From assembly GCA_016748015.1 (NCBI GenBank), contig JAAOMT010000446.1, forward strand, positions 200,758 through 264,757: a stretch of 64,000 nucleotides of DNA, written 5' to 3'. The notes below the pieces were generated by a model. It saw nothing but the letters and a program-made list of their open reading frames with translations, was not told the DNA's origin and searched no databases. Below, in pieces: positions 7,690 through 53,344 of this stretch. The position numbers and the translations under genes are program-made. The first letter of the stretch is position 1. Each line of letters opens with the position of its first letter. This DNA is from Geosiphon pyriformis uo1 (lineage: Eukaryota > Fungi > Glomeromycota).

Positions 7690-8646
7690 ATCTGTTTCTT
7701 TGAGGGTTAGGATTACTTCTGCTAGTAAGAAAAATGTGCTGAGTGTTTTAAATTCTGATAAGTTTTTTAATGTTTGTGATAGTTTACTGAAGGTGTGGTC
7801 TGATTGCATTGAGATTTATACAGATGAATTCTTAAAATGTGCTGGTTCTGCTGAAGTGACAAGTGGAGCAGCTGCATACTTTCTGGCTGCAGATGCTGAT
7901 ATTAGAATTAGAATGGCTGGGCTTTTGTCTTCTACTTTGACTGAGTTGCAAGCTGTGGGACTGGCATTGGAATGTGTTTCATCTTTGTGCTTAGTGGTCT
8001 TGTACTTGGATAGTCAAGCTGCAATTGATGTCTGTATCTCTGAGGCTTCTGTTACTATGCTCGACTTCCATAACCAATGTTAGATTGAAAGATTGCATAT
8101 AGATAATCTCCTTGAAAGTAAAAATATTTCTATTAAGTGTGTGAAAATTAAAGATCATTTAGATGTGTTGGGCAATATTAGGGCTAATGCATTGGCTAAT
8201 GAAACAACTTCCTTGTTTTTTTCTATGCTGGTGAGAATTTGGGAGAGGTTTTTGGTCACTAAAAAAACTGCTATATCTGGCAATACTTGTCATTTTTTTT
8301 GAGACTTATACTGGTTGATATGTCATGCCCATTGGGAGGCTAGTCCAGATTTTAATGTAATTTTGGATGTTATGATTAAAAAAATAGATTGGAAGGCTAC
8401 TGCAATGATCTGGCACCCTAATTCACACATGCTTTCTGAATTCACCAGTAGAAAGTCAGCCAATTTGTGCACATACTTGATGAAAGTTATATACAAATGG
8501 CTGCCAATTGTGGTTAGAAAGAGATTGTATAACAAAAGTTATTCTGAAGTATTGTGCTTACTGTGTGGTGAGGTGGAGTTGTCTAATCATGTTTTTATTT
8601 GTTCTGGTAACTCTGGTCTCTGCAGGGACATTTTGGTTAAAGCTGC
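7690..8646 (+). mobile_element. Non-LTR retrotransposon (LINE-1), 5'-truncated, left part: RNase H and C-terminal Zn-binding region of ORF2 (pseudogenised)
   Basis: ORFs 7700-8704 show RNase H motifs (IYTD, ELQAV, YLDSQAAI, KIKDH, GNIRANALA) and CLLCGEVELSNHVFIC. Collinear with LINE-2 ORF2 at 36970-37800. The frame resumes at 28373 after the LTR insertion (LVKAA|EK...). The 5' boundary is approximate. Confidence 0.85.
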
Positions 8647-9629
8647 TGTTACTAATGGTTTTTGGTCTCTTTTTTTAAATGTTGTTAATGTTGATTTGTT
8701 GTGAATTCATGTTTCCAGAAAGTAGTTAGACCTCCAGTAACTGAATTTATCTTCAAATTATCTTCTATAATTTAAACTTGCTGGGCTTATAAGTGGAATA
8801 GCCAATTTTGTGCCAGTTGCTTTATGTAGTTATATTGTAGTAAACGTTAACTCTTTTCTAGGAATTGCTCATCTGGAAGCTCACTAAAAATATGTAGTTA
8901 CTTTGCTGTGAAAGTCAACTCTTCTACAGGAATCTCGTCTGTAGGCTACCCTAATGATTGTAATAAGAAAAAAAAAGAAAAATAAAAGAAATATAAAAGA
9001 AATAGGATTTTATCAAGAGAAACGTTTTTCTATTCAGGCCTGGAGTCACTAACAGTTTACTGAAATTGGTAGCTAATTAATTTCGAAATGTTAGTTGGGT
9101 TTTTGGAGGTTTTTCCAAGTACAATAATTAAAGAATTTGGTTTTTCGAATTATTTGATATTTATTTCTTTTTGTGTATATAGGAATAGTTTTAAGAGATA
9201 AATCTAAAGTAAGATATATTTTCTTGAAGAGAAATGCTCTTCTTTTATATAACTTGTTATAACACTATTCTATGAACTTGAACTTTGCTATTTTCTACAA
9301 TTTCGCTGAACTAAAGATACATTTCGGTGAACTACAAGTTATTTCTGTGAATTATTAGATATTTCGGTGAACTATCAATTATTTTGGCGAATTTCTACAA
9401 ATTTTGGCAAACTTTTGAATGTTACATAGTTCGGAGTATTGCATGATTTGATTATCGCAATTAGGTTACATTTGTGTTGTGTACAAATTGGGTTATTAAT
9501 TAAATGATAATTTCGGACATTTTGCTAATGTAATAAGTGATAATTTGAAACAATAATATATGCTAATTAATGATAGGATTTATAAGATAATTTCATGCTA
9601 AATAATATCTCTAATTTTGTCTGGTAATA
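8647..9629 (-). repeat. 3' LTR of element A
   Basis: Begins tgttac and ends ctggtaata (C>T of gtaaca); adjacent PPT; shares diagnostic bases with 27396-28368. Confidence 0.93.
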
Positions 9630-10317
9630 TAACCTCCTCTTTAAGACTGAGCTCCATCAAAGTCCAAGTACTGTCTGTAATTTTCAGATAATAATCCAAA
9701 ATTATTGAAGAAATTTGGTCTGAAAATTGTTGAAATTTCAGTTTTGTGAGCTTTCCAATGTATTGAATCTTTAAAGACTGTAAAATTGGGTTTTGTAGGA
9801 CATTTTCACAGGTGTAGAATAGATCATAAAGTCTAAGAGCAGCTCTGAGCTTGTAGCGACTGTTTATTGGTCTAGCTGTTGTCTTGAATTCATTGTGGAG
9901 TTGTTTCTGAATAGCTTCTTTTGTGAAGTTTGCTGTTGTAAGTTCCAGTTTCTGTTCGTAGAGTGTTTTTCCAATGTGGAAATATTTATAGATTAGAGGA
10001 TATTCAGTGTTTTTCTCATTGAAACACAGTTGAAATCTTTGTTGAATTGTAGCATTTGGTGGAATACTAATCAGAGTGAGCATTAGGTTTTCTCTTAAAG
10101 CAAGCTTTAAAAGTTTTGGCAGGTGAATTCCAGAATAATTTCTTGTGTTTTTCTTATATGAGTGATATTTTCGTAAATTTGGGGCTAAATTTGTAACTAC
10201 TTTTGTTTGGGTATAATTAATGTGGTTTCCAGTAACAGTAATGGATAATTCGGGTATTGTTTTTAAAGCTAACATTAGTTTTTGGGATAATTGTTGAATG
10301 TTTTGAGGAATAGTCAT
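9598..10317 (-). CDS. ORF3 of element A: 239-aa protein of unknown function, intact frame, overlapping the PPT and U3
   Basis: Open ATG-to-stop frame, highly similar to B ORF3, with homologues in C and D. No evident signal peptide or TM segment. Confidence 0.75.
   Translation of the reverse strand: MTIPQNIQQLSQKLMLALKTIPELSITVTGNHINYTQTKVVTNLAPNLRKYHSYKKNTRNYSGIHLPKLLKLALRENLMLTLISIPPNATIQQRFQLCFNEKNTEYPLIYKYFHIGKTLYEQKLELTTANFTKEAIQKQLHNEFKTTARPINSRYKLRAALRLYDLFYTCENVLQNPILQSLKIQYIGKLTKLKFQQFSDQISSIILDYYLKITDSTWTLMELSLKEEVILPDKIRDII
9630..9645 (-). other. Polypurine tract of element A
   Basis: Minus strand cttaaagaggaggtta directly upstream of the 3' LTR. Confidence 0.85.
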
Positions 10318-10422: not shown

Positions 10423-11808
10423 TTAAGTGTTCAGATTGGAAGATTGTTCAATGACAACTATTGGTTCTAAGTTTCAGGAAATATCTTCGAAATTGACTAA
10501 AAGGGAATGTATATCAATTTGTGGAATTAATAGTTCAGAATTGTTTCTGGAATGATAGTGTTTCAAACAATCTCCATGTGCAACTTTTGCTAGGATTTTG
10601 TCATCAAATCTTAGCTTGTATGATCCGTTGCTTAGAACTTCATGGATAAAGAATGGTCCATTCCATTTATTTTCAAATTTTCCACTCCATTGTTTTTTAG
10701 CTTTAGTTCTATGTAAGAGAACTTTGTTTCTGATTTTAAATTCATTGGTGACTGAAGGCAATTTGTTATCATGCCATTCTTTTTGTCAAGCTTGGGAGTG
10801 TTCAATATGGATGGCTGCTATTCGTTGTTTTTCTTTCAATGTGCTTAGCAAAGTGTAGGCTCTTTACTGAAGCATTTCTTGGAAATTGTTTTCATTAATT
10901 GGTTGTGTTGGGTATGTTTCCACTGTGAAACTAATTGGTAATGTTGCTGTCCTTCCATAAGTTAAATCAAATAGTATGTGTTTTGTGGTATCTTGTTTTA
11001 GTGTTCTGTATGCTAGCAACACTAATGAAATAAAGATATCCCACTCTTGCTTAAAATTGGTTGAGACTTTGGCTAATAACTCACACAATGTTCTGTTAAA
11101 ATGTTCTACAAGTCCATTTGTTTGTGGATGGTAGGGCGAAGACAGAGGTCTTTTGACATTGAATTGTTCCCAAATTTTTTGTATCAGGTTGTTCACAAAG
11201 TGTGTTCCCTGATCAGATAAAAGTTCAATTGGACATCTATGTCTACAAATGATGTTTTTATAGATGAAATTTGCTATTGATTTTGCATCTGCTCATTGAA
11301 TGGCTCTGGCTTTGGGCCATTTAGTAAGATAGTCTAAAGCTACTGCAATATAATGGTTTCCTTGAGTAGTAATAGATAGTGGTTCAACTAAATCAATACC
11401 AACTCAGTCAAAGAGTTGTTCAACTTTGATTGGATTTAATGGTTCAGTAGGGCATGTTCCTTTTCTTCTTTGACAACTATCACAAAATTCAACATATTCA
11501 TGAATGTCTTTCCTCATTCGAGGCCAAAAGTAGTATTCTAGTGTTTTTTGGGTGGTGCTATTTTTTCCGAAGTGTGCTAATGAAGAATCTGAGTGTATGT
11601 TGTATAATATGGTCTCTTTTTTCTGTTTTTGTATTAATCTGAGTGGTTTGTTTGGGTTTTTGAAATTTCGATGATAAATAATGTTATTGTGTAGAAAATA
11701 TTGTTTGGCTTATTGTTGTAGTCAATGTTTTTCATCTGGAGACCAATCTGTTGGGATTGTTAATGTTTCCAAATATTGTTTAAGATTATTGTAGTTTTCC
11801 AAATTCAT
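10423..11808 (-). pseudogene. Integrase ORF of element A (HHCC zinc finger, DDE core, GPY/F module), with internal stops
   Basis: YHPQTNGLVEHFNRTL, WNGPFFIHEVLSNGSYKL; own ATG at 11808. Confidence 0.9.
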
Positions 11809-11859
11809 TGTTTGTTGGTTGTTTTAATTGGTTAAGTTGAGTGTTGGTTTTTGTGTTTT

Positions 11860-14162
11860 CTAATCTTGTCTTATTCTGGAGAGACAGTCAACATTGGTGT
11901 AGAGTTTTCCTGGTTTGTGATGTACTATGTATCAATAGTTTGCTAAAAATCCTGTCTATTGGGTTTGTTTTGCATTCAGCTGAGTATTTTTATTCTGAAG
12001 CCATTTGAGTCCAATATTATTAGTAATAATATCAAATTCTTTAGGCCTGAGATAAAAGTTGAAGTGGTGTAGAGCCCAAATTACAGCTGCTGTTTCTAGT
12101 TTTGTGGCAGAATAATTTTTCTCAGCTGGTTTTAATGTTTTGCTGGCATAAGCGATTACTCGCTCATTTCCATTGTCATCTAATTGTGATAGGATAGCAC
12201 CAAAGGCAGTATAAGAGGCATCTGTTGCTAATCGGAATTGGTTGCTGAAATTTGGGTAGGCGAGAATTGGAGCTGTTGTCAGTTTTTCCTTGAGAATTTC
12301 AAAAGCTTTTTGGTGTTTGGTAGTCTATTTGTATTCAACATTTTTGGTGGTGAACTGGTTGAGAAGTTTTGCAATTTTCGAAAATTCTTTGATAAACTTC
12401 TGATAGTAAAATGCTAATCCTATAAATCCTCTTAGTTCTGTAGTGTTTCGAGGAGTTTTGAAGTTTTTGACAACGCTAATTTTTCCAGGGTCTGGTTTGA
12501 TTCCATCTTTACTACCGATATGTCCAAGGAAAGCCAAACTTGTTTTTCCAAAGTAGCATTTTTTGATGTTAAGTTTTAGTTCTGCTTTTTGTAATCATTG
12601 AAAAACTTCTCACAGGTGTTTTAAGTGTAATTCGAACAATAGAAAATAAACATCAGTATTGTCAAAATAAATGACTACTGACTTCCAAAGAAGTCCTTGG
12701 TACACAATATCTATTAATCTCTGAAACATTGCTGGTGCATTGCATAATCCGAAAGGCATTATATTGAACTCGTAATTTCTGCCTTGGATGGTGAATGCTG
12801 TCTTGGGGTGATCTTTGGGATCCATAGCAACTTGCCAGTAACCGCTTTCTAAATCTAGTGTTGAAAAGTATTTGAATTTTTCAAGGGCATCTAACATGTC
12901 ATCAATCTGGGAAAGGGAGTAGGCATCTCCAATTGTAACACTGTTGAGTTGTTGATAGTCAACACAAAATTGGATCTTTCCATTTTTCTTTTTAACTAGC
13001 ACTACAGGTGAAGCCCAAGGACTCATGGAGGGTTGGATGAGCCTATTGTTAAGCATTCATTGTACTTCTTCTCAGATGAATTGGTGGCTTTCTGGAGCAA
13101 CTCAATATGCTTGTTGTCTTCTTGGTTTGGCATCTCCTGTATAAATTTGATGTTGAACCAAATTGGTTCTTCCTAAGTCATTGTTGTTTTCAGCAATGAT
13201 ATTGGCAAATTCTGCAATTAGCTCTTTGAGCTGGGTCTGTTGTTGTGGTTCAAGTTGTCCCATGTTGATTTGAAATAGTTTTTCCATAACAACATGGTAG
13301 TTTTTGGAGCTGGGGTTTGGATTGATTTTTGATAGTGAATGTCCAATAATTTCAGAGAAATCGGGGACTGTTTGGGGTAATTTTTGTTGAAATATATTAC
13401 TGTGAATAACTCCAATTTCTAAATTATTTAATAAAATTATGGGGTAATTATTGGGGTTGTAAAAAGTAACTCGGATTTTCTTTGTTCCTTCTGGAATATA
13501 AATGTTTAGGATTGAAATATTATGTTCCAAGCAGACTTGTTCATTGGATTCAAAAATTTGTTGTGTGGTTGTTGGCTTTGGGCAGATGTAGATTTCCGGA
13601 TGTTCTCCAAAGAGTGAGATGATAATTGGTTGTGGAAGTCTAAGAATCTGGTGGGATTCATTCTGTGTTTTAAGAGCTATATTAACTGGAACTGTGAATC
13701 ATCCAGTTGAACCAAAACCTTGGGTTCCTCTATCACTTTTTCCTAATTGTTGTCTTTAATTGACTAGTTGTAAACCCGAAATGTTGATTAGGGGTAGGTA
13801 AATAGCTTGGGCAATTTTTTCAGCATGTTCAATCTTGAATGGTTTGTCAGTTTCATTTTGAAGCATCACTGTAATGTCTCCAGTATATCCAGCATTGATT
13901 ATTCCTCTTCTGACATTGATTTCTTTGCTTGCCAGAGAGGACCAGGAGGTGATTTGAACCATTGCTTCTAGCAGGATTTCGAGTGCAATTTTGAGGTTGA
14001 TTTTTGTAAGAGATTTGGGTTTGAGAACAAGAGTATCCTTGTCTGAATATCTTAGATCATATCCAGCATCAATTTTGTGTGCTTTTTCGGGTTTTATTTC
14101 TTGTTTGTTGTTGTTGAAGTATTTAAGTTGTAAGACAGGCTGATTTTTGATAAGGTAGATGA
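11860..14162 (-). pseudogene. Element A polyprotein, 3' part: dUTPase, linker, RT, RNase H
   Basis: SPWASPVVLVKKKNGK, FSTLDLESGYWQV, MPFGLCNAP, YFDNTD (YLDD-like), FLGHI, TDAS, IAYASKTL; all in one frame with premature stops. Confidence 0.92.
13705..14135 (-). pseudogene. dut: dUTPase domain of element A
   Basis: AHKIDAGYDL (motif 1), SWSSLASK (RSS motif 2), GIINAGYTGDI (motif 3), KIAQAI (motif 4), RGTQGFGSTG (motif 5). Confidence 0.9.
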
Positions 14163-15151
14163 TGTTACCGGAGGTTTTTGGTTTCTTTTCTGTAATGTTG
14201 TTGATACTTATTTGCTGTGAATTCACGTTTTTAGGAAGTAGTTGAACCTCTAATAACTGAATTTATCTTCAAATTATCTCCTATAATTTGAACTGCTGGA
14301 CTTATAAGTGGAATGGCCAATTCCGTGCCAGTTGCTTTATGTAATTTGTAGTTACATTGTAGTAAATATCAACTCTTTCCCAGGAATTGCTTGTCTGGAA
14401 GCTCACTAAAAATGTGTAGTTACTTTGCTGTGAAAGTCAACTCTTCTACAGGAATCTTGTCTGTAGGCTACCTTAATGATTGTAATAAAAAAAAAAAAGA
14501 AAAATAAAAGAAGTGTAAAAGAAATAGGATTTTATCAAGGGAAACGTTTTCTATCTAGGCCTGAAGTCACTAACAGTTTACTGAAATTGGTAGCTAATCA
14601 ATTTCAAAATGTTAGTTGGGTTTTGAGGATTTTTCTAAGTGCAATAATTTAAAAAATTTGGTTTTTCGAATTATTTGATATTTATTTCTTTTTGTGTATA
14701 TAAGAACGGTTTTGAGAGATAAATCTAAAGTAAGATACATTTTCTCGAAGAGAGAAGCTCTTCTTTTATACAATTTGTCATAACACTATTCTATGAACTT
14801 GAACTTTGCTATTTTCTACAATTTTGCTGAACTAAAGATACATTTTAGCAAACTACAAGTTATTTCTATGAACTATTAGATATTTCAGTGAACTATCAAT
14901 TATTTCGGCAAATTTCTATAAATTTCGGCAAACTTTTGAATGTTACATAGTTTGGGGTTTTGCATGATTGATTATCACAATTAGGTTACATTTGTGTTGT
15001 GTACAATTTGGGTTATTAATTAAATGATAATTTCAGACATTCTTTGCTAATGTAATAAGTGATAATTTAAAACAATAATATATGCTAATTAATGATAAGA
15101 ATTATGAGATAGTTTTATGCTAAATAATATCTCTAATTTCGTCTGGTAACA
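14163..15151 (-). repeat. 3' LTR of element B
   Basis: tgttacc...ctggtaaca, followed by the PPT complement taacctcctcctcaag (15152-15167). Confidence 0.93.
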
Positions 15152-15839
15152 TAACCTCCTCCTCAAGACTGAGCTCCGTCAAAGTCCAAGTACTGTCTGT
15201 TATTTCCAGATAATAATCCAAAATTATTGAAGAAATTTGGTCTGAAAATTGTTGAAATTTCAGTTCTGTGAGCTTTTCAATGTATTGAATCTTCAAAGGT
15301 TGAAAAATTGGGTTTTGTAGTACAATTTTACAGGTGTGAAATAGGTGATAAAGTCTAAGAGCAGCTCTAAGCCTGTAGCGACTGTTTGTTGATCCAGCTG
15401 TTGTCTTGAATTTGTTGTGGAGTTGTTTCTGAATAGCTTCTTTTGTGAGGTTTGCTGTTATAAGTTCCAGTTTTTGTTCATAGAGTGTTTTTCCAATGTG
15501 AAAATATCTATAGATTGGAGGATATTCGGTGTTTTCCTCATTGAGACACAGTTGAAGTTTTTGTTGAATTGTAGCATTTAGTGGAATACTAATCGGAGTG
15601 AGCATTAGGTTTTCTTTTAAAGCAAGCTTTAAAAGTTTTGGCAGGTAAATTCCAGAATAACTTCTTGTGTTCTTCTTATATGAGTGATATTTTCGTGAAT
15701 TTGGGGCTAAATTTGTAACTACTTTTGTTTGGGTATAATTAATGTGGTTTCCAGTAACAGTAATGGATAATTCGGGTATTGTTTTTAAAGCTAACATTAG
15801 TTTTTGGGATAATTGTTGAATGTTTTGAGGAATAGTCAT
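15120..15839 (-). CDS. ORF3 of element B: ~239-aa protein of unknown function, intact frame
   Basis: MTIPQNIQQL...LPDEIRDII*; homologue of A ORF3. Confidence 0.75.
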   Translation of the reverse strand: MTIPQNIQQLSQKLMLALKTIPELSITVTGNHINYTQTKVVTNLAPNSRKYHSYKKNTRSYSGIYLPKLLKLALKENLMLTPISIPLNATIQQKLQLCLNEENTEYPPIYRYFHIGKTLYEQKLELITANLTKEAIQKQLHNKFKTTAGSTNSRYRLRAALRLYHLFHTCKIVLQNPIFQPLKIQYIEKLTELKFQQFSDQISSIILDYYLEITDSTWTLTELSLEEEVMLPDEIRDII

Positions 15840-15955
15840 TATAAGCAATTGAAAAAATAAAAAATTATTTTTGGTGTATGGGTTTTTATGTTATTTTTTG
15901 TTTTGTTTTTGTGAGATTGTTTCTAAATTATAAGAGAATAACTAGTAAAATTAAA

Positions 15956-17341
15956 TTAAGTGTTCAGTTTAGAAAGTTGTTCAATAACAACTATTGGTTC
16001 TAAGTTTCGGGGAATATCTTTAGGACTAACCAAAGGAGAATGTGTACCAATTTGTGGAATTAGTGGTTCAGGATTGTTTCTGGAATAATAGTGTTTCAAA
16101 CGATCTCCATGTGCAACTTTTGCTAGAATTTTGTCATCAAGTCTTAGCTTGTATGATCCGTTGCCTAGAACTTCATGGATAAAAAATGGTCCATCCCATT
16201 TATTTTCAAATTTTCCACTCCATTGTTTTTCAGCTTTAGTTCTGTGTAAGAGAACTTTGTTTCCAATTTTGAATTTATTGGTGACTGAAGGCAATTTGTT
16301 ATCATGCCATTCTTTTTGTTGAGCTTGGGAGTGTTCAATATGGGTGGCTGCTATTCGTCATTTTCCTTCTAATGTGCTAAGCAGAGTGTAGGCTCTTCCT
16401 TGAAGCATTTCTTAGAAATTGTTTTCATCAATTGGTTGTGCTGGGTATGTTTCTACTGTGAAACTAATTGGTAACGTTGCCGTCATTCCATAAGTTAAAT
16501 CAAATGATGTGTGTTTCGTGGTATCTTGTTTTAATGTCCTATATGCTAGTAACACTAATGGAATAAAGAGATCCCATTCTTGCTCAAAATCGGTTAAAAC
16601 TTTAGCTAATGACTCACACAATGTTCTGTTAAAACGTTCCACAAATCCGTTTGTTTGTGGATGGTAGGGCGAAGACAGAGGTCTTTTGACATTAAATCAT
16701 TCACAAATTTCTTGTATCAGGTTGTTCACAAAGTGTGTTCCCTGATTGGATAAAAGTTTAATTGGACATCCATGTCTACAAATGATGTCTTCGTAGATGA
16801 AATTTGCTACTGATTTTGCATCTGCTCGTTGAATGGCTCTGGCTTCAGGCCATTTAGTAAGATAGTCTACAGCTACTGCAATATAACGGTTTCCTTGAGT
16901 GGTGATAGATAATGGTCTGACTAAATCGATACCAACTCTGTCAAAAGGCTGTCCAACTTTGATTGGGTTTAAAGATTCTGTAGGGCAAGTTTCTCCTTTT
17001 CTTTGACAACTATCACAAAATTCGACATATTTGTGAATGTCTTTTCTCATTTGAGGCCAAAAGTAGTATTCTAGTGTTCTTTGGGTGGTGCTATCTTTTC
17101 TGAAGTGTGCTGATGAAGGATCTGAGTGCATATTGTATAAAATGGTCTCTTTTTCCTGTTTTTGTATTAATCTGAGTGGTTTGGTTGGGTTTTTGAAATT
17201 TCGATGATAGATAATGTTGTTGTGTAGAAAATATTGTTTGGCTTGTTGTTGTAACCAATGGTTTTTATCTGGAGACCAATCTGTTGAAATTGTTAATGTC
17301 TCCAAATATTGTTTGAGATTGTTGTAGTTTTCAGGGTTCAT
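15956..17341 (-). pseudogene. Integrase ORF of element B
   Basis: Starts MNPENYNN; H-x6-H...CDSC zinc finger; GIDLV, VDYLTKWPEA, LLSNQGTHF, ERFNRTL; GPF module; a few internal stops; no chromodomain. Confidence 0.92.
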
Positions 17342-17393
17342 TGTTTGTTGTTTTGATGCTGTTAATTCAAATGGGTGTTGATTTTTTTTTTTT

Positions 17394-20300
17394 CTAATCT
17401 TGCCTCATTCTTGAGAAACAATCAACGTTGGTGTGGAGTTTTTCTGGTTTGTGGTATACGATATATTAGTAATTAGCTAAAAATCCTGTTCATCAAGTTT
17501 GTTTTGTGTTTAGCTAGATGTTTTTGTTTTGAAGCCATTTAAGTTCAATATTATCAGTGATAATATCGAATTCTTTGGGTCTGAGGTAAAGATTGAAGTA
17601 ATGTAGGGCCCAAATTACTGCTGCAGTTTCTAATTTTGTTGCGAGATAGTTCTTTTTGGCTGGCTTTAATGTTCTACTAGCATAAGCAATTACTCGCTCA
17701 TTTCCATTGTCATCTAACTGTGATAGGATGGCACTAAAGGCAGTATAAAAAGCATCAGTTGCTAACTGGAATCGGTTGTTGAAGTCTGGATAGGCGAGGA
17801 TTGGAGCTGTTGTGAGTTTTTTCTTAAGTATCTCGAAGGCATTTTGGTGTTCTTTTGTCCATTTGTATTCGACATTTTTAGTAGTGAGCTGGTTAAGGAG
17901 TTTTGCAATTTCTGAGAATCCTTTGATGAATTTTTGGTTATAGGATGCTAATCCAATAAATCTTCTTAATTCTGTGATATTTCATGGAGTTTTGAAGTTT
18001 TTGATAATACTAATTTTTCCGGGGTCTGGTTTAATTCCATCTTTGTTAACAATGTGACCAAAAAAAGCTAAACTTGTTTTTCCGAAGTAGTATTTTTCAA
18101 TGTTCAGTTTCAATCCTGCTTTCCGTAATTGTTGAAAAACTTCTCGCAGGTAAATTAAATATAGCTCGAAAGATGGTGAATAAACATCAGTGTTATTAAG
18201 ATAAACTACTACTGATTTCCAAAGGAGACCTTTGTAAACAACATCCATAAGTCTTTGGAATGTTGCTGGTGCATTGCATAATCCAAAAGGCATTACATTG
18301 AACTCGTAATTTCCTCCTTAAGTAGTGAATGCTGTTTTGGAGTGGTCTTTGGGATCCATAGCAACTTGCCAGTATTCACTCTTTAAATCTAATGTTGAAA
18401 AGTATTTGAACTTTCCAAGAGCATCCAACATGTCATCAATTCGGGGAAGAGGGTAGGCATCCCCAATGGTGACAATGTTGAGTTGTCAGTAATCAACACA
18501 AAATCATATCTTTCCATTTTTCTTTTTAACTAAGACCACAGGTAAGGCCCATGAGCTCATTGATGGTTGAATAAGCCCATTGTTAAGCATCCATTGTACT
18601 TCTTCTCAGATAAATTGGTGACTTTCTGGGGCGACTCGGTAGGCTTGTTGTCGCCTTGGTTTGGCATCTCCTGTATAGATTTGGTGTTGAACCAAATCAG
18701 TTCTTTCTAAGTCATTGTTGTTTTCGGCGAAGATGTCAGCAAATTCTGCAATTAGCTCTTTGAGCTGGGTCTGTTGTTGTGGTTCAAGTTGTTCTATGTT
18801 GATTCGAGATAGTTTTTCCATGACAACATGGTAGTTTTCAGAGCTAGGGTTTGGGTTGATTTTTGGTAGTGAATGTCTAATAATTTTAGGGAAATCGGGG
18901 ACTGTTTGGGGTAATTCTTGTTGAAATATATTACTGTGAATAATTCCAATTTCTAAATTATTTAATAAAATTATGGGGTAATTATTGGGGTTGTAAAAAG
19001 TAACTCGGACTTTCTTTGTTCCCTCTGGAATATAAATGTTTGGGATCAAAATATTATGTTCCAAGCAGACTTGTTCATTAGACTCAAAAATTTGTTGTGT
19101 GGTTGTTGGCTTTGGACAAATGTAGATTTCCGGATGTTCTCCAAAGAGTGAGATGATAATTGGTTGTGAAAGTCTGAGAATCTGGTGAAATTCGTTCTGT
19201 GTGTTAAGAGCTATATTAACTAGAACTGTGAATTGTCCAGTTGAACCAAAACCTTGGGTTCCTCTATCACTTTTTCCTAATTGTTCTCTTTAATTGACTA
19301 GTTGCAAACCCGAAATGTTGATTAAGAGTAGGTAAATAGCTTGGGCAATTTTTTCAGCATGTTCGATCTTGAATGGTTTGTCAGTTTCATTTTGAAGCAT
19401 CACTGTTATGTCTTCAGTATATCCAGCATCAATTATTCCTTCTCTGACATTGATTCCTTTGCTTGCCAGAGAGGACCGGGAGGCAATTTGAATCATTGCT
19501 CCTGGCGGGATTTCGAGTGCAATTTTGAGATTGATTTTTGTAAGAGATTTGGGTTTGAGAACAAAAGTATCCTTGCCTGGATATCTTAGGTCATATCCAG
19601 CATCAATTTTGTGTGCTTTTTTGGGTTTTATTCCTTGTCCGTTGTTGTTAAAGTATTTAAGTTGTAAGACAGGCTAATTTTCAATAAGGTAGATGAATGT
19701 TGTTTTAATTTCTTTCATTTCTTCAGGTTCTCCAAATTCAATTTCATTCTCATCATTTTTGCTGGGCAAGGAGATACTAAGAGCATAGCATTCAGGACAC
19801 CATTGTTTATCACAAGGCATAATGCATTCTTCACATAGCCTAATGTTCATTTGCTCTAATCATTGAATTTGAGCTTTTTGGGTCGGGTAGGTGTGACTTG
19901 CAATTTGGTGGTAAACTTCTACTTCATCTTCGTAATTGAATCCAGCTAATTCTATAGTGTATTGAATGTATTCTGCTTCCTTCATTTGACAAACATCTTC
20001 TTTGGTAGCTCTATTAATTAGTGCCATTGCTAAGTCGAAAATCATCTCGGCATCATAAGGGTAGTGATAAAGTTTGTTGAGAGCACTGTTGTATGCTGCA
20101 TTAAAGGGTGTTCCTCTTTTTACTTTTTCTGAAATTGATAAAGCATATTGGCAGGTCTGATTGCAGACGCCTCCTCTCATTGCTACATCAATCTAATTGT
20201 ATTCTTCCGGTAGCATATCTCCACAAGTCAAACAAGGGGTGTTGTCCCATTTTCCATTCTTTTTTATTAGATGGCCCCATTGTTCTCTGTGGCAAACCTT

Positions 20301-23030
20301 GCAGTAATAACAAGTATGATTCTTATATTCTTTTTAGGTGAAATGCAGGCTTCCATTGACGATAGTTTCTTGTGGCAGTCCTTACATTTAAGAGGAATAT
20401 AGGGGCATTGTTTTCTTGGTTTGGGTTTTGAGTAAGGTATATTCCATTCAGAGATTTCAGGTTTAGTGTGTGGGGTAAAATGTTCTTGTTCTGTTTCATC
20501 AGCCCAGTTGGACGTTGATCCAAGAGCCATGAATGTTTCGATTATTGGTTTTTCTTCTTCTGGTTCAAATTCAAAAGCTAGGGCTTTTTCAGAGTGTTTG
20601 TTGAATATACCACAAATGGCAGATACCTGGGCGTGTTATCCTTGGTAGGAGATTGTTAACTCTTGTGTTTCCCAATTCAGATTAGCATTGGCTTTTTGAA
20701 GCCAATCATTTCCGACAAGAGCTTGGTATTGGGATGCGTCCATTACAAGAACTTTGACTGGAATGGTAATTCCATCAATAGTGAATGGAAAATTGTCAAT
20801 TTCTCCTACTAGTGTCTTTTTCATGCCATCAGCAGTGACAATTACTGTTTGAGCTGGTCAGTCAACATTTCTTTTCAACTGTTGCATTAACTGGTAGGTA
20901 ATAATGCTTCTGGTGGATCCACTGTCTAGGATCAAGTGAATTGGCTTTCTTTTTACTTCAGCTTCTGTGTATATTGCAGTGATGGCTTTTTGCTTATTAG
21001 CTGCTGCATTGCTAAGCAAGAATGGTGATTCATTTGCTTCAAATTCAAAAGGAAAGATATCAGAAAGATTGGCGTTTTCAGCAATTCAGGCTGGTGGAAT
21101 AGTGATGTGGTTATGAGAAGGGTTTCATTGTTGTTGTGCTACAGCTCTATCTTCCGGGAGTACAATATGGTGAAAATCCTGTTCTTCTGGCATTGTTAAA
21201 TAACTGGGTTGAGTGTGGTAGTGGTTGGGTCTTGGTTGAGTGGTATTTTGAGGAACCAATTGGTTGTTCGAACTGATTCTACTGTTGTTTACTTGGTATC
21301 AGTTTTGTGGTGTAAATTGATTTTGTGTAATCAGTCTTCAAGCAGGTACTTGATAATGTTATGTGGATGGTTGTTGGTATTGCTGTTGGATTGGTTGTGG
21401 GGCGGGCTGATAATAGTTATTTTGGTATTAGGGTCTTGGTAAATAGTAAGCTGGTGGTGATGGTTGATAATAAGATTGCTGTGGTGGAGAGTAACATTGA
21501 TTACCCCTATTTTGTTGGTCTCGTTGCAGCTTTCTGCAATCTCTTTTCCAGTGGTCAGAGATTCTACAGTAATGGCAATTCTGGGACTGGTTATTGAAAA
21601 GTGGTGCAAAGTTATTTTGATTTCGTCTTTGGAGTGGTTGATATTTTTGGGGTTGTTGTTGTTGTTGGTTGGTAAAATAGTTTTTGACCTTCTTTGTGAG
21701 TTGGTCAATTTTTTCTTCGGCTGCTGAGCTGGTTTCTCCAATTGCCAAATTTACAAGTTTTGTACAATTGGCTTCTTCCATGGCCATTTTGTATCTTTTT
21801 GCATGCTGTATGACAGAGTTTAAATCTTCTGGTGTGTGTGGGCGAACTTTTTTAATTAGTTTATCTTTTAGACCAGCAATAAATTAATCCAAAATTTGAG
21901 CATCGGAATAATAATTGTTTGTCTCGAGTTGGCAAATCCGTCTAAGAAGTTTGTTGAATTTCCCAATATAAGTCATAACGAATTCGGAGGGTTCTTGTTT
22001 GATATTTCGAAAACAATTGTGAAAAGTGATGGAGGTATTATTGTCGGTGAACTGTTCAAGGAAGGCTGCTTTGAAAGCATTCTAATCATTGAATGGGGCA
22101 GCAAGGTTTTCAAACCATTCTTCTGCTGTTCCTTTGAGAAAGTAGGGAATTGTTCTTAACATTCTGGCAGCATTCTATTTATTTGCATCTCCAGCTTTAA
22201 TAACTTGGTCAAGTCATTCTTGGGGACTGGTCTCAATATCTTTTCCATTGAATTCAAGAATTTTTGCAATGTATGTTGTCATTTCGTCTTCTTCATTTTT
22301 ACTGTCTATTGATTCTTCTTCAGTTATTTCAGAGTTGTTTTCTTCATTTGCTGCTGTCTCAGAGTGTTCACTTTGATTTTCAGCTAGAAAATCAAGAAGA
22401 TTGGAACTAGTTTGAAGGGGTTTTTGTTGTCTGGTGGGACTTCTGAGTGATGTAAAATCTTCTGGTCTTGCAAATCAATTCAAGGGTGAATTAGGTGTTT
22501 GTGCTTGTGCAAGTGAAGCTGGAAAAGGTGTGATAGTAAGTAAAAGTTTTGAGCTGGTTCCTTGTTCAGGTGTTTGTAGATGTTTGAATAATATTTTGGA
22601 AGTATTGGGTGTTGTGTGAACAGGTCAGTTATCTTTTTGTCTTTTGTTGCTACTGGTTTCAGGTTCAGATTCGAGTTCAAAGACAAATTGTGCGTTTGCA
22701 GGATATTTTTCTTCGCAAAATCAAATAATATTATAATCGAGTTCCTCAAAATAAGTAGCGCAAGCTTCAGCACTAATGTTTTCTGATTCAGTGTTAGAAT
22801 AGTGTAGTATGTTCTCAAGAAAATCTCTTTTAACTATTGTAATGTTATAGTTCCCAAAGAGGTAGTTATTGATTTGATTTTCAATATATTGAAAAAGTGT
22901 TTTCTTGAAAGCTATAATTTCATCGCGTATTTCAAATTGTTGTTTGCAGTGTGTGTAAATTGATTGATAGTACTCTAAGATTGTGATGTCTGAGGCGGTT
23001 GCCACTTTGAATTTGTTGTTGTGTTATTTC
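17394..23030 (-). pseudogene. Element B ORF1 polyprotein: N-terminal extension, Gag (CA-like and CCHC knuckle), aspartic protease, Cys-rich domain, dUTPase, RT, RNase H
   Basis: CHYCRISDHWKRDC, LILDSGS, GIIDAGYTEDI, GFGSTG, MPFGLCNAPATFQR, YLNNTD; one frame except a single 1-nt deletion near 20330; ends RMRQD*. Confidence 0.92.
19237..19665 (-). pseudogene. dut: dUTPase domain of element B
   Basis: DAGYDL, ASRSSLASKG, GIIDAGYTEDI, KIAQAI, RGTQGFGSTG. Confidence 0.9.
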
Positions 23031-23035
23031 TGTAA

Positions 23036-23045
23036 GAGAGCACCA
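23036..23045 (-). other. Primer-binding site of element B (TGGTGCTCTC)
   Basis: Starts with TGG, 2 nt after the 5' LTR end; identical core in A. The cognate tRNA was not identified. Confidence 0.75.
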
Positions 23046-23047
23046 AA

Positions 23048-24030
23048 TGTTATCAGAAGTTTTTGGGTCTCTTTTCTGTAATGTTGTTGATACTTATTTG
23101 CTGTGAATTCACGTTTTCAGGAAGTAGTTGAACCTCCAATAACTGAATTTATCTTCAAATTATCTCCTATAATTTGAACTGCTGGGCTTATAAGTGGAAT
23201 GGCCAATTCCGTGCCAGTTGCTTTATGTAGTTACGTTGTAGTAAACGTCAACTCTTTCCCAAGAATTGCTCGTCTGGAAGCTCACTAAAAATGTGTAGTT
23301 ACTTTGCTGTGAAAGTCAACTCTTCTACAGGAATCTTGTTTGTAGGCTACCCTAATGATTGTAATAAGAAAAAAAAAGAAAAATAAAAGAAGTGTAAAAG
23401 AAATAAGATTTTATCAAGGGAAACGTTTTCTATCCAGGCCTGGAGTCTCTAACAGTTTACTGAAATTGGTAGCTAATCAATTTCAAAACATTAGTTGGGT
23501 TTTGAGAATTTTTCCAAGTGCAATAATTTAAAGAATTTGGTTTTTCGAATTATTTGATATTTATTTTTTTTTGTGTGTATAAAAATGGTTTTAAGAGATA
23601 AATCTAAAGTAAGATACATTTTCTCGAAGAGAGAAGCTCTTCTTTTATACAACTTGTCATAACACTATTCTATGAACTTGAACTTTGCTATTTTCTACAA
23701 TTTCGCTGAACTAAAGATACATTTCGGCGAACTACAAGTTATTTCTGCGAACTATTAGATATTTCAGTGAACTATCAATTATTTCAGCAAATTTCTATAA
23801 ATTTCGGCGAACTTTTGAATCTTACATAGTTTGGGGTTTTGCATGATTGATCATCATAATTAAGTTACATTTGTGTTGTGTACAAACTGGGTTATTAATT
23901 AAATGATAATTTTGGACATTCTTTGTTAATGTAATAAGTAATAATTTGAAACAATAATATATGCTAATTAATGATAGGAATTATGAAATAGTTTCATGCT
24001 AAATAATATCTCTAATTTTGTCTGGTAACA
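23048..24030 (-). repeat. 5' LTR of element B
   Basis: tgttatc...ctggtaaca; PBS adjacent; shares diagnostic bases with 14163-15151. Confidence 0.93.
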
Positions 24031-24034
24031 ATGG

Positions 24035-27000
24035 ATGTTGTTTCAATTTCTTCCGTTGCTTTAAGTTCTCCAAATTCAATTTCATTCTCATCATTTTCGC
24101 TGGGCAAGGGGATATTAAGAGCGTAGTATTCAGGACATCACTGTTCATTACAAAGCATAATGCATTCTTCACATAGCCTAATGTTCATTTGCTCTAATCG
24201 TTGAATTTGAGCTTCTTGGGTTGAGTAGGTGTGACTTACAATTTGGTAGTAGATTTCTACTTTGTCTTCATAATCAAATCCAGCTAATTCCATTGTGTAT
24301 TCATATATTCTGCTTCCTTCATTTAATGAACATCTTCTTTGGTAGCTTTATTAATTAATGCCATTGCTAGGTCAAAAATCATCTTGGCATCATGGAGGTA
24401 GTGATAAAGTTTGTTGAGTGCACTGTTGTATACTGCATTAAAGGGTGTTCCTCTTTTTACTTTTTCTGAAATTGATAAAGCATATTGGCAGGTCTGATTA
24501 CAGACTCTTCCTCTCATAGCTACATCAATCCAATAGCATTCTTCCGGTAGCATATCTCCACAAGTCAAACAAGGAATGTTGTCCTATTTTCCACTTTTTT
24601 TTATTAGATGGCCCCATTGTTCTCTGTGGCAAGTCTTGCAGTAATAACAAGTATGATTTTCATATTCTTCTTCAGGTGAAATGCAGGCTCCCATTGATGA
24701 TAGTTTCTTGTAACAGTCTTTACATTTAAGGGGAATATAGGGGTGTTGTTTCTTTGGTTCAGGTTTTGAGTAAGGGATATTTTATCCAGAGGTTTCGGAT
24801 TCAGAATGTGGGGTAAAATGTTCTTGTTCTGTTTTATCGGCCCAGTTAGACATTGATCTAAGAGCCATGAATGTTTCAATAAGGGGTTTTTCCTCTTCCA
24901 GTTCGAATTCAAAAGCCAGGGCTTTTTCAGAGCATTTGTTGAATATACCACAAGTGGCAGATACCCGGACGTGTTGTCTTTGGTAGAAGATTGTTAACTC
25001 TTGTGTTTTCCAATTCAGATTAGCATTGGCTTTTTGAAGCCAATCATTTCTGACGAGAGCTTGGTACTGAGGTGTGTTCATTACAAGAACTTTGACTGGA
25101 ATGGTGATTCTGTCAAGAGTAAACAAAAAATTGTCAATTTCTCTTACTGGGGTCTTTTTCATGCCATCGGCAGTGACGATTACTGTTTGAGCTGGTCGGT
25201 CAACATTTCTCTTTAATTGTTGCATTAACTAATAGGTGATAATGCTTCCAGCAGATCCACTGTCTAGGATCAAGCAAATTGTCTTTCCTTCGACTTCTGC
25301 TTCAGTGTACATAGCCATGATTGCTTTTTGTTTATTGGTGGCTGCATTGCTAAGCAGGAATGGTGACTCATTTGCTTTGAACTCAAAAAAGAATATATCT
25401 GAAAGGTTAGCATTTTTAGCGATTCTGGCTGGTAAGATTGTGGTGAGAGTATAGGAAGGGTTTTGTTGTTGTGCTGCAGTTCTATCTTCTGAGGGTACAA
25501 TATGGTAAAAATCCTGTTCTTTTGGCATTGTTAAATAACTGGGTTGAGTATGGTAGTGGTTGGGTCTTGGTTGAGTGGTATTTTGAGGAATCAATTGGTT
25601 GTTCAAACTGATTCTACTGTTGTTTACTTGGTATCAGTTTTGTGGTGTAAATTGATTTTGTGTAATCAGTCTTCAAGCAGGTACTTGATAATGTTGTGTG
25701 GGTGGTTGTTGGTATTGCTGTTGGATTGATTGTGGGGCGGGCTGATAATAGTTATTTTGGTATTGGGGTCTTGGTAAATAGTAAGCTGGTGGTGATGGTT
25801 GATAATAAGATTGCTGTGGTGGAGAGTAACATTGATTACCCCTATTTTGTTGGTCTCGTTGCAGCTTTCTACAATCTCTTTTTCAGTGGCCAGAGATTCC
25901 ACAGTAATGGCAATTCTGGGACTGGTTATTGGAAAGTGGTGCAAAGTTATTTTGATTTCGTCTTTGGGGTGGTTGATATCTTTGGGGTTGTTGTTGTTGT
26001 TGGTTGGTAAAATAGTTTTCGACCTTCTTTGTAAGTTGGTCAATTTTTTCCTCGGCTGCTGAACTGGTTTCTCCAATTGCCAAATTTACAAGTTTTGTAC
26101 AATTGGCTTCTTCCATGGCCATTTTGTATCTTTTCGCATGCTGTATGGCCGAGTTTAAATCTTCTGGTGCGTGTGGGCAAACCTTTTTAATTAGTTTATC
26201 TTTTAGACCAGCAATAAATTGATCCAAAATTTGAGCATCAGAATAATAATTGTTTGTTTCGAGTTGGCAAATCCGTCTGAGAAGTTTGTTGAATTTCCCA
26301 ATATAAGTCATAACAGATTCGGAGGGTTCTTGTTTGATATTTCGAAAACGATTGTGAAAAGTGATGGAGGTATTATTGTCAGTGAACTGTTCAAGGAAGG
26401 CTGCTTTGAAAGCATTCCAATCATTAAATGGGGCAGCAAGGTTTTCAAACCATTTTCCTGCTGTTCCTTTGAGAAAGTAGGGAATTGTTTTTAACATTCT
26501 GGCAGCATTCCATCCATTTGCATCTCCAGCTTTAGTAACTTGGTCAAGCCATTCTTGGGGACTGGTTTCAATGTCTTTTCCATTAAATTCAGAAATTTTT
26601 GCGATGTATGTTGTCATTTCGTCTTCGTCATTTTCATTGTCTATTGATTCTTCTTCAGATATTTCAGGTTCGTTTTCTTTGTTTGCTGCTGTCTCAGAGT
26701 GTTCACTTTGATTTTCAGCTAAAAAGTCAAGGAGATTGGAACTAGTTTGAAGAGGTTCTTGTTGTCTGATGGGACTTCTAAGTGATGTAAAATCTTCTGG
26801 CCTTGCCAATCAATTCAAAGGTAAATTAGGCATTTGTGCTTGTGCAAGTAAAGCTGAAAAAGGTGTGATAGTAAGTGGAAGTTTTGAACTGGTTTCTTGT
26901 TCAGGTGTTTGTAAATTGTTGGCAGTTGTTTTTGGTGTCTTTGGAGTATTTGGGGTAATATTTGAGTGTTGTTTCAGTTTTTGTTTGCCTTTGTTGCTTG

Positions 27001-27394
27001 TTTCTGTTTCTGATTCAAAGTCAATAGATTATTTAGACTGCACTGGATATGTTTTTTCACAGTATTTGATAATGTTAAAATTAAGTTCGTGAAAGTAAGT
27101 AGCAAGTGTTTCGCTGTTAAGGTCTTCAGTTCCCAACTGTAAATAATGTGCTAGATTATTGTAAAGGTTGCTTTTGACTTCTGAGATATTGTAATTTTCA
27201 AAAAGATAATTGTTGATGCAGTTTTCAATGTATTGGTATACTGATTTCTTGACAACTTCAATTCCGTCTGGAATGTTGAATCTTTGCTTGCAGTGGGTAT
27301 AAATTGATTGGTAATACTCTAGAGTTGATGTGTCTGATGTGGTTGCCACTTTGAATTTTGTTGTTGCTGTGTTATTTCCATGGGAGAGCACCAA
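24035..27394 (-). pseudogene. Element A polyprotein, 5' part: N-terminal extension, Gag, zinc knuckle, protease, Cys-rich domain
   Basis: ORFs 27029-27394, 25883-26809, 25229-25606, 24782-25225 and 24323-24568 share one frame; QEWLDQV, IKQEPSESVMTYIGKF, CHYCGISGH, LILDSGSAGSII. Confidence 0.92.
27384..27393 (-). other. Primer-binding site of element A (TGGTGCTCTC)
   Basis: Minus strand reads ...gtaaca tt tggtgctctcccatgg. Confidence 0.75.
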
Positions 27395-27395
27395 A

Positions 27396-28368
27396 TGTTA
27401 CCAGTGGTTTTTGGTCTCTTTTTTTAAATGTTATTAATGTTGATTTGTTGTGAATTCACATTTCCAGGAAATAGTTGAACCTCCAGTAACTGAATTTATC
27501 TTCAAATTATCTCCTATAATTTGAACTTGCTGGGCTTATGAGTAGAATGGCCAATTCCGTGCCAGTTGTTTTATATAGTTACATTGTAGTAAATGTCAAC
27601 TCTTTCCCAGGAATTGCTTGTCTAGAAGCTCACTAAAAATGTGTAGTTACTTTGCTGTGAAAGTCAACTCTTCTACAGGAATCTTGTCTGTAGGCTACCC
27701 TAATGATTGTAATAAGAAAAGAAAAGAAAAATAAAAAAAATAGAATTTTATCAAGGAAAACGTTTTTCTATTCAAGCTTGGAGTCACTAACAGTTTACTG
27801 AAATTGGTAGCTAATCAATTTCGAAATGTAAGTTGGATTTTTGGGGGTTTTTCTAAGTACAATAATTAAAGAATTTGGTTTTTCGAATTATTTGATATTT
27901 ATTTCTTTTTGTGTGTATAGGAATGGTTTTAAGAGATAAATCTAAAGTAAGATACATTTTCTTGAAGAGAGATGCTCTTCTTTTATACAACTTGTCGTAA
28001 CACTATTCTATGAACTTGAACTTTGCTATTTTCTATAATTTTACTGAACTAAAGATACATTTCGGCAAATTACAAGTTATTTTTGCAAACTATTAGATAT
28101 TTTAATAAACTATCAATTATTTTGGCGAATTTCTACAAATTTTGGCAAACTTTTGAATGTTACATAGTTCGGGGTATTGCATGATTTGATCATCACAATT
28201 AGGTTACATTTGTGTTGTGTACAAATTGGGTTATTAATTAAATGATAAATTTCGGACATTTTGCTAATGTAATAAGTAATAATTTGAAATAATAATATAT
28301 GCTAATTAATGATAGGATTTATAAGATAATTTTATGCTAAATAATATCTCTAATTTCGTCTGATAACA
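27396..28368 (-). repeat. 5' LTR of element A
   Basis: tgttacc...tgataaca followed by TSD ctgc. Confidence 0.93.
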
Positions 28369-44374: not shown

Positions 44375-45056
44375 TTATTCCTTCCTTTTAAGATTAAGCT
44401 CTGTTGAAATCAAAGTTAATTTCTTTATTAAATTTTAAGTTACTATAGTGGTTCAATACTGTGTTATTAATTTGTTGTTGTAATTCTTAAAATTGCAAGT
44501 TGGTAAGTCGTCCAATACTGTTGATTGTTATTATATTTATGGTTGGATCCAACAATAGTTTGTAACAGTTTTCAAATGCTTTGAAAATTCTATAAACTGT
44601 TTTTGAATGAAATGTAGTGTTGGTTTTTCCAATGAAAGGTTCTAATAGTTGGATAGTTGTTTTGTCAAACACTCTAGTTGAGTCTTTTGAGTATAATGTT
44701 TGTATGTTCAAGTGCTTTCCTAGTTGATAATAACAGTAGTTAATTGGAAATTTCGTTTTCAAGTTGTTAAATGTGTCTGGTGTTAATTCACTTATTTTTA
44801 TTTCTTCCATTATTAGTGTATTGCCCAATGCTATCTCTAATTTTTCAATAACTTTGCTGATAAATTTGTTGTTATGTTTGGTAATATTATATAATTTAAA
44901 ATTATGTTCTTTTCTTGTTTTTGGATTTTTTATTGTTCTTTTTATGTATGTTATTTTGGAGCTATTAACTGTGATTTCCAGATCGGATTTCAATTGTTGT
45001 AAGCTTTCAATTAATTGTTGAGTTATATTGTTGATGTTTTCTGGAATAAGTATTAT
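44375..45056 (-). pseudogene. ORF3 of element C (homologue of A/B ORF3)
   Basis: IPENINNITQQL vs IPQNIQQLSQKL; PINYCYYQLGKHL vs PPIYRYFHIGKTL; IGRLTNLQF vs IGKLTKLKF; the start appears mutated ATG>ATA. Confidence 0.75.
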
Positions 45057-53342: not shown

Positions 53343-53344
53343 AA

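What the first reader, a model, noticed from the sequence alone, without database searches (positions are those of the whole stretch)
9598..10317. Conserved non-Env third ORF in three divergent Gypsy families
Seen: a ~240-aa ORF lies between integrase and the 3' LTR. It is fully open in both A and B (15120-15839) although their pol frames have many stops. It is homologous in C (44375-45056) and D (~41070-41650: FCYYQLEQQL, ARAIY, TITINQLEKLTN). Shared pattern: IPxNI..L.Q.L / YY(Q/H)(L/I)G..L / R(L/I)(Y/F)..F..C / I..IG(K/R)LT...F. There is no signal peptide or TM helix, so it is not a typical Env. In A and B it reads through the PPT into U3, like lentiviral nef. Inference: an accessory protein (transactivator, anti-silencing or movement factor) retained across the whole clade.
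Basis: partly seen in the sequence, partly recalled or inferred. Interest (0 to 1): 0.8.

Follow-up and report, generated by a model that had tools for sequence, protein, structure and literature searches.

The report
Extra gene in fungal jumping genes
Decayed jumping genes in this fungal genome carry a conserved third gene behind an integrase that is, unusually, its own gene; the small soluble product matches no known protein family and likely binds the element's own DNA or RNA to help it get expressed, a role that is untested.

Summary
The ORF is real (minus strand, 10317→9598, 239 aa). It is a conserved third gene of Ty3/Gypsy elements, likely in Geosiphon pyriformis. A and B are nested copies of one family; C and D are broken homologues. 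Relatives fall into about eight deep lineages, and metagenome contig L001 has the same RT-RH-IN-ORF3-PPT order. Selection on the protein between families and subfamilies is shown. It is not Env: no hydrophobic helix, no conserved Cys. No Pfam family matches, and the fold stays unassigned.

The copies are decaying neutrally, so the open frames are only modest evidence (about 4 stops expected, P≈0.02, post hoc). The 'nef-like' run into U3 is family-specific: a shared DNA motif before the PPT is read in different frames.

Earlier scan notes report a similar layout on other DNA.

Best mechanism (inferred, 0.35): a nuclear, non-enzymatic protein acting on its own LTR, whose U3 carries family-private tandem repeats. 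Rivals are an RNA or translation factor and an integrase partner.

The parts
9598..10317 (-). ORF3 of element A, 239 aa (P0001). Predicted N-terminal helix-strand-strand module (5-37), disordered basic linker (39-62), all-alpha domain (87-215), low-confidence tail over PPT/LTR
9633..9655 (-). Conserved cis motif (GAGCTCA-type) plus polypurine tract; read as ELSL in A/B/L001 and as [G/R]AQY-stop in D and other families
8647..9629 (-). 3' LTR of element A (983 bp); 92.9% identical to its 5' LTR
9299..9391 (-). U3 tandem array, 5 copies of a CG-bearing 12-mer at about 20-nt period, private to the A/B family; candidate ORF3 binding site (untested)
10423..11808 (-). Integrase of A as a separate ORF with its own ATG (7 decay stops)
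11809..11862 (-). Conserved stop ending the RT-RH frame plus a 51-nt A/C-rich spacer before the integrase ATG
11860..14159 (-). 3' part of A's gag-pol frame: dUTPase, RT, RNase H (decayed)
   Evidence: (dUTPase scored on copy B)
14163..24030 (-). Element B, full length, nested in A; LTRs 14163-15151 and 23048-24030 (94.6% identical); separate IN 15956-17341
15120..15839 (-). ORF3 of element B, 239 aa (P0002)
24031..28368 (-). 5' half of element A: 5' LTR 27396-28368, PBS, about 110-aa ATG-less leader ORF, gag, protease, Cys-rich domain
44388..45056 (-). ORF3 of element C (start codon decayed, stops at 44489 and 44396, ends before the PPT)
45140..46519 (-). Separate integrase ORF of C, ATG 31 nt after the RT-RH stop at 46553-46551
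41082..41740 (-). ORF3 remnant of element D, frameshifted, ends RAQY-stop before the PPT (5' limit approximate)

Best explanation
ORF3 is a conserved third gene of a Ty3/Gypsy lineage with three separate genes (gag-PR-dUTPase-RT-RH, integrase, ORF3), and its soluble product is likely a nuclear, non-enzymatic nucleic-acid-binding protein that would act in trans on its own element's LTR to switch on or keep up transcription against methylation silencing. Shown: the gene, its position, its selection as a protein, the lack of Env features, the separate integrase, CpG-type decay of the elements and family-private repeats in U3. Predicted: a compact all-alpha C-terminal domain. Inferred only: expression from a subgenomic RNA, nuclear import through the basic PY-containing linker, DNA binding by the helix starting at N152, and the U3 repeats as its target.
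For: Real gene under selection. With the PPT-overlapping tail removed, A-C, A-L001 and C-L001 alignments score 139-193 against a codon-shuffle null of about 0±14 (0 of 300 shuffles reach them), while third codon positions are at background. pS is 0.69-0.76 (saturated) and pN 0.46-0.50. Between two Geosiphon subfamilies (88 and 33 of 121 proteins), 39 fixed differences are more conservative than 292 rare substitutions (mean BLOSUM +0.26 vs -0.46, p=0.004). They avoid deeply conserved sites (4 of 57 vs 30 of 129, p=0.007) and spare residues 108-215 (0.08 per site vs 0.27-0.46 elsewhere).

Binding rather than catalysis. Across 9 family representatives the conserved columns are Y110, Y112, G116, N152, R162, F167, G188, K/R189 and basic K56; no D/E/H/C/S column reached 70% except E222 in the PPT-overlap tail. 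Domain model pLDDT 88, pTM 0.81. A PY-x-[RK] motif lies in the disordered linker of P0157, P0158 and P0176 and in 64 of the 100 paralogues that match the motif (119 examined).

Context. Many pol stops come from CGA codons (17 stops at 25 such sites), as expected of CG methylation, which is reported on TEs of the related Rhizophagus (PMC8647823 passages). U3 carries tandem repeats that differ by family and almost never cross-match. That is the pattern described for VANC targets (PMC5735166 abstract).
Against: No direct binding, localisation or expression data. The pI is basic in A, B and C (9.2-9.7) but acidic in P0157 and P0158 (5.4-5.9). The PY motif is absent from P0177 and P0174 and is SY in A and B themselves. 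U3 repeats are common in LTRs without extra genes (my knowledge) and could be host factor sites; in C5 and L001 the 12-mer count (3) did not beat the best of 8 shuffles. The separate integrase needs its own explanation, and an RNA-level or integrase-partner role gives one more directly.
Confidence: 0.35

Rival explanations
1. ORF3 works on RNA. It would export unspliced genomic RNA (like Cer1 CERV or Rev) or enable translation of the downstream integrase gene by reinitiation (like CaMV TAV).
For: The element is polycistronic. RT-RH stops at the same motif in A, B, C and L001, followed by 51, 52, 31 and 24 nt of A/C-rich spacer in differing frames and an ATG with A at -3. CERV is a novel retrotransposon protein needed for gRNA export (PMC10309623 abstract). 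TAV activates reinitiation on polycistronic RNA (PMC5734791 listing). The Atlas listed RNA-binding families (closterovirus coat, RegA) at 0.91-0.94 in both queries, as leads only.
Against: No conserved splice acceptor or stop-start overlap is visible before ORF3 across A, B, C, D and L001 (spacers about 84-316 nt). The Atlas shared-feature counts (126-158) are below the 170 typical of true family hits.
Confidence: 0.25
2. ORF3 is a partner of the free-standing integrase. It would carry it into the particle or nucleus, or tether it to target chromatin in place of a chromodomain.
For: Integrase is not fused to Gag-Pol in 4 of the 4 elements whose junction is readable, so it needs another route to the cDNA. 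ORF3 lies next to it in all of them. The IN C-terminus matched only an SH3-type family and no chromodomain in the stretches scanned. Earlier scan notes report separate IN together with a third gene in other genomes (unchecked).
Against: Adjacency is the default position for any 3' accessory gene. ORF3 diverges much faster (26-33% identity) than IN (53-57%) between the same families.
Confidence: 0.2
3. ORF3 is a structural or movement protein that would coat the element's RNA or particle and spread it between nuclei of the coenocytic hyphae.
For: Atlas feature similarity to closterovirus coat protein, 0.93 and 0.94. A coenocytic host gives a reason to move between nuclei (my knowledge).
Against: No Pfam Closter_coat match for any member scanned. 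No membrane anchor.
Confidence: 0.1
4. The ORF is a by-product of AT-rich, CpG-poor sequence and of constraints at the PPT and LTR, with no protein function.
For: A and B accumulate missense freely (dN/dS 0.6 uncorrected, 41 of 46 differences are transitions). The C-terminal 'conservation' does reflect a DNA motif.
Against: Protein-level similarity remains after removing the tail and survives saturated third positions. Fixed differences between subfamilies are conservative and avoid conserved sites. An intact homologue sits in the same slot in L001.
Confidence: 0.03

Closest known systems
Fungal Ty3/Gypsy elements with dUTPase or an 'additional ORF of unknown function' (Novikova et al. 2010, PMC2864245; passages seen)
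   Same: Fungal Gypsy, dUTPase between PR and RT (as in PosPlaTy3-5), an extra ORF of unknown function
   Different: Those are mostly chromoviruses with IN inside Pol. Here IN is a separate ORF. Sequence identity with their extra ORFs was not tested (the supplement was not opened).
Non-Env ORF3s of bdelloid LTR retrotransposons (PMC5408684, passages) and sense aORF-3S of plant elements (PMC7264820, part 1 of 3)
   Same: Sense ORF between pol and the 3' LTR, family-wide, some bdelloid lineages also with dUTPase
   Different: Those are Env-like/TM proteins, GDSL esterases or DEDDy nucleases. This one is soluble, has no conserved catalytic residues and matches no Pfam family.
VANC anti-silencing proteins of Arabidopsis VANDAL transposons (PMC5735166 abstract)
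   Same: TE-encoded extra protein, a methylating host, family-variable tandem repeats in non-coding DNA
   Different: VANDALs are DNA transposons. No homology was found, and binding or demethylation by ORF3 is unshown.
CERV of C. elegans Cer1 (PMC10309623 abstract) and CaMV TAV/P6 (PMC5734791 listing)
   Same: Novel accessory proteins of reverse-transcribing elements that act on expression; TAV serves a polycistronic RNA
   Different: No homology was found. CERV comes from a spliced mRNA; splicing here is unknown.
Lentiviral nef (recalled)
   Same: Overlaps PPT and U3 in the A/B family, L001 and probably P0157
   Different: The overlap is only about 10 codons and absent in C, D and other families. 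There is no N-terminal Gly for myristoylation.

Membership tests
Ty3/Gypsy (Metaviridae) element | LTRs with TG...CA ends, target-site duplication, PBS and PPT | tested here: met
   4-bp TSDs match fully in 1 of 5 insertions and at 3 of 4 bases in the other 4; the priming tRNA was not identified
Ty3/Gypsy (Metaviridae) element | Gag of Ty3 type and order PR-RT-RH-IN | tested here: met
   Retrotrans_gag and Ty3_capsid; RT, RH and IN Pfam hits on L001 mapped to the window by tblastn
Ty3/Gypsy (Metaviridae) element | Integrase translated as part of the Pol polyprotein (canonical layout) | tested here: not met
   Stop, variable spacer and own ATG in A, B, C and L001; filed as a variant layout, not a canonical member
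Ty3/Gypsy (Metaviridae) element | Placement in a named clade by RT phylogeny | not tested
   No reference RT set was held
Env / Env-like ORF3 | Signal peptide and transmembrane anchor | tested here: not met
   Maximum KD19 at most 1.29 in 11 of 11 proteins; hydropathy only, no dedicated predictor
Env / Env-like ORF3 | Conserved cysteines | tested here: not met
   0-3 Cys per protein, no Cys column conserved at 70%
Env / Env-like ORF3 | Homology to a viral fusion protein | tested here: inconclusive
nef-like accessory gene | Conserved overlap with U3 and an N-terminal myristoylation Gly (recalled) | tested here: not met
   Overlap only in some families; A and B start MTIP
VANC-like anti-silencer | Family-specific tandem repeats in the element's non-coding DNA | tested here: met
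   clear in A3, B5, solo48 and D; weak in C5 and L001
VANC-like anti-silencer | Sequence-specific binding and loss of methylation in trans | not testable with these tools
   needs EMSA or DAP-seq and methylome data
CERV/Rev-like or TAV-like RNA factor | Spliced or polycistronic RNA whose use depends on the protein | tested here: inconclusive
   Three separate ORFs shown; RNA not seen
ParB/Spo0J-type HTH DNA-binding domain | Fold and profile similarity over the HTH domain | tested here: inconclusive
   Whole-domain alignments to 1vz0 (Z 4.6, rmsd 4.4, 95 aligned) and 6s6h (Z 4.3, rmsd 5.6, 95 aligned) are within background; hhalign to 3 ParB sequences gave probability 0.15%, matched by 13 of 60 shuffles
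Closterovirus coat protein PF01785 | Sequence or fold match | tested here: inconclusive
   Atlas feature lead; no Pfam hit

The most novel reading that the evidence does not exclude
An undescribed three-gene Gypsy lineage (gag-pol without IN, free integrase, ORF3) in early-diverging symbiotic fungi encodes a new-fold, sequence-specific anti-silencing protein. It recognises family-private, CG-bearing U3 repeat arrays, which makes it a retrotransposon counterpart of plant VANC. It helped LTR elements reach 41% of the Geosiphon genome.
Probability: 0.15. Interest if true: 0.85.

Novelty: new variant of a known kind. Interest (0 to 1): 0.52.

Why it matters
Extra 3' genes of LTR retrotransposons are known, but almost none has a tested function outside Env. 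Here the protein family is unassigned, small, soluble and well predicted, has intact copies, and comes with a concrete candidate target (family-private U3 arrays). That makes the question of how fungal retrotransposons escape methylation directly testable. A free-standing integrase departs from the textbook Pol polyprotein and raises the question of how IN reaches the cDNA. Practically, more than 200 'hypothetical proteins' matched by ORF3, nearly all those seen named as G. pyriformis, look like transposon ORF3 copies rather than host genes, and LTR elements cover 41.2% of that genome (PMC11952901 passage).

Tried and rejected
Family searches. Pfam gave no match for P0001-P0003 at E≤5 and only scattered weak hits for 20 alignment members and 5 more relatives. 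NCBIfam gave nothing near its cut-offs. PDB sequence searches with three profiles gave nothing below E 0.47. The PHROG 23683 lead (E=1.4e-4 on P0001; phage tblastn E=3) was rejected by hhalign, probability 0.6%.

Fold searches. Full model: Foldseek pdb and viral had no E≤0.001, VIA best Z 5.1. Domain model: viral best E 0.72, VIA best Z 6.0 over 59 residues of the PNPase helical domain, pdb_via best Z 4.6. This neither names the fold nor shows it is new. The N-terminal module was not folded alone, and no AlphaFold DB library was available. The ParB resemblance (recalled, then seen weakly) was not supported. DUF3102 and DUF1016_N (recalled leads) could not be profile-compared.

Other tests. The leader ORF upstream of gag is not detectably related to ORF3 (probability 0.12%). 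RNA runs: no RNA holder listed. The ORF3-integrase complex job returned no verdict (not folded). No whole genome was held, so there was no genome-wide copy count or codon-model dN/dS. Scans of viral contigs, prokaryote genomes and plasmids or phages gave no usable locus. An exact k-mer test for U3 repeats lacked power in A, B and C and was replaced by a mismatch test.

Literature. Searches found no description of this ORF3 or of a Gypsy with a separate integrase. The library lacks most subscription papers; I did not see the Geosiphon genome papers or any supplements, which may bear on novelty. PMC8778642 and PMC3248453 (passages) added nothing.

Full report
What is there. The flagged frame is on the minus strand: ATG at 10317, stop at 9600-9598, 239 aa, with an 86.6% identical open copy at 15839-15120. 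Self-comparison and the LTR ends show that these are two insertions of one family. Element B (14163-24030, LTRs 94.6% identical) sits inside element A (8647-28368, LTRs 92.9%), with 4-bp target duplications. Element C (43533-54217) carries a homologue (29% identity over 203 columns, E=6e-13) whose start codon has decayed and which has stops at 44489 and 44396. D carries a frameshifted one (profile iE 3e-17 and 3e-11). The elements are Ty3/Gypsy-type with Gag, protease, dUTPase, RT, RNase H and integrase.

Source and range. A search with A gave 206 hits among 369 candidates; 119 of the 120 listed are named Geosiphon pyriformis hypothetical proteins and the other is the query, so the window is likely that fungus. 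A profile against 1.84 billion representatives gave 51 hits. Of 18 that I looked up, 14 are Geosiphon and 4 are unnamed metagenome proteins. A second, distant-only profile gave 16 hits among 2879 candidates: 9 Geosiphon and 7 unnamed. No hit that I could see named came from another species, but these searches were weighted to the A/B family or limited by shared words. A tree of 16 selected rows shows about eight deep lineages, with long branches and an unsure backbone. One outside DNA context was obtained: L001, 1 of 498 pattern matches, has RT-RH, IN, an intact 230-aa homologue, PPT and LTR start in the same order. Fused gene models place IN fragments just upstream of a further family (P0162, P0163).

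Is it a selected protein? Yes between lineages, no within these copies. With the PPT-overlapping tail removed, inter-family alignments score 139-193 against about 0±14 for codon shuffles (0 of 300), while third positions are at background. pS is saturated (0.69-0.76) and pN is 0.46-0.50, so no reliable dN/dS can be quoted. Among 121 paralogues, differences fixed between two subfamilies are more conservative than rare substitutions (39 vs 292; p=0.004), avoid deeply conserved sites (4 of 57 vs 30 of 129; p=0.007; 5 fixed sites lacked outgroup coverage) and spare residues 108-215. Rare substitutions are also half as frequent at conserved sites (0.0077 vs 0.015), which may partly reflect codon mutability. 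The absence of stops is mildly unusual (3.95 expected after codon correction, P=0.019, post hoc), and C's ORF3 is no better kept than its IN.

The nef analogy fails. A motif just 5' of the PPT is shared at the DNA level by A, B, C, D and L001. It is read as ELSL/ELNL and on into U3 in A, B and L001. C and D stop at or before the PPT, and 9 of 17 other C-termini listed end in [G/E]AQ[Y/F]. The tail has pLDDT about 40.

Anatomy. AlphaFold predicts a low-confidence helix-strand-strand start, a disordered basic linker, and a confident all-alpha domain at residues 87-215 (pLDDT 88, pTM 0.81). There is no hydrophobic helix in 11 of 11 proteins and no conserved Cys, so it is not Env. Conserved columns are aromatic, Gly, Asn and basic, not typical catalytic residues. 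A PY-x-[RK] motif in the linker recurs in several families and looks like a nuclear import signal (motif type recalled), but it is missing in some members and is SY in A and B. No family was assigned; the fold and ParB tests are listed under Tried and rejected.

The RT-RH frame ends in a stop at the same motif in A, B, C and L001. A 24-52-nt A/C-rich spacer of varying frame follows, then an ATG that opens the integrase; D is too decayed to read. L001 has only one other stop in 713 codons, so decay is an unlikely cause. The lineage therefore has three genes, with IN outside the polyprotein. I saw this before consulting earlier notes; two of them report a separate integrase plus a third gene in other genomes, there with stop-start overlaps. 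Whether their third genes are homologous to this one is unknown (sequence look-ups were empty). Each family's U3 also has its own tandem array: 5 copies in A, 6 in a related solo LTR, 5 in D, 3-4 in C, 3 in L001, against shuffle maxima of 2-3 in only 8 shuffles each, with almost no cross-family matches.

How it most likely works. I commit, at 0.35, to a nuclear trans-acting regulator of the element's own LTR. The reasons are the binding-type conservation, the candidate import signal, the CpG-type decay (17 stops at 25 CGA-type sites) in a group where TEs are CG-methylated (PMC8647823, Rhizophagus), and family-private repeats of the kind VANC proteins target (PMC5735166). All mechanistic steps are inferred. 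The polycistronic layout gives nearly as much room to an RNA export or reinitiation factor (0.25; CERV; TAV) or an integrase partner (0.2). A coat or movement role rests on an Atlas lead only (0.1).

Novelty and verdict. Extra 3' ORFs and dUTPase are documented in fungal, rotifer and plant LTR elements, so the kind is known. This protein family and the separate-integrase layout were not found in eight literature searches of a library that lacks most subscription journals. Verdict: a real feature and a new variant of a known kind, interest 0.52.

Noticed in passing
window 11809-11862, 17342-17396, 46520-46553; L001 772-798: Conserved stop after RNase H and a separate ATG for integrase in three independent families; arguably as interesting as ORF3
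   Followed up: partly
window 27029-27397, 22721-23050, about 52950-53340: About 110-aa helical ORF between the PBS and the gag ATG, without a conserved start codon; only 59% identical between A and B while the rest of the element is about 88% at the DNA level; no Pfam match
   Followed up: partly
window about 19750-20350, 24100-24700, 49950-50500: Cys-rich (CxxC) plus helical domain between protease and dUTPase in the A/B and C polyproteins; no Pfam match in two stretches scanned
   Followed up: no
window 13100-13760 and 18606-19289: Beta-rich insert between dUTPase and RT; by eye like a second, degenerate dUTPase fold; only a weak Spuma_A9PTase hit at its end
   Followed up: no
window 10400-14160 vs 15950-19690: Silent divergence between A and B is about three times higher over RT-RH (25-36 per 120 codons) than over dUTPase, the IN 3' end and ORF3 (4-9), suggesting a recombinant element
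   Followed up: no
window 32035-33003, 38238-39223 (+), 48064-49072: Three solo LTRs related to the A/B family; one is inserted in element C
   Followed up: partly
window about 40200-40500: Very old, AT-eroded A/B-like remnant (ORF3 piece at 40471-40397, E=2e-4 within the window, and LTR-like sequence)
   Followed up: no
window about 7650-8700, 30600-38300, 61300-63500: Decayed LINE-like fragments (endonuclease, RT and RNase H motifs seen by eye in the ORF list); not tested
   Followed up: no
window 1200-1340 and 60060-60220: 12-bp-period AT-rich tandem arrays
   Followed up: no
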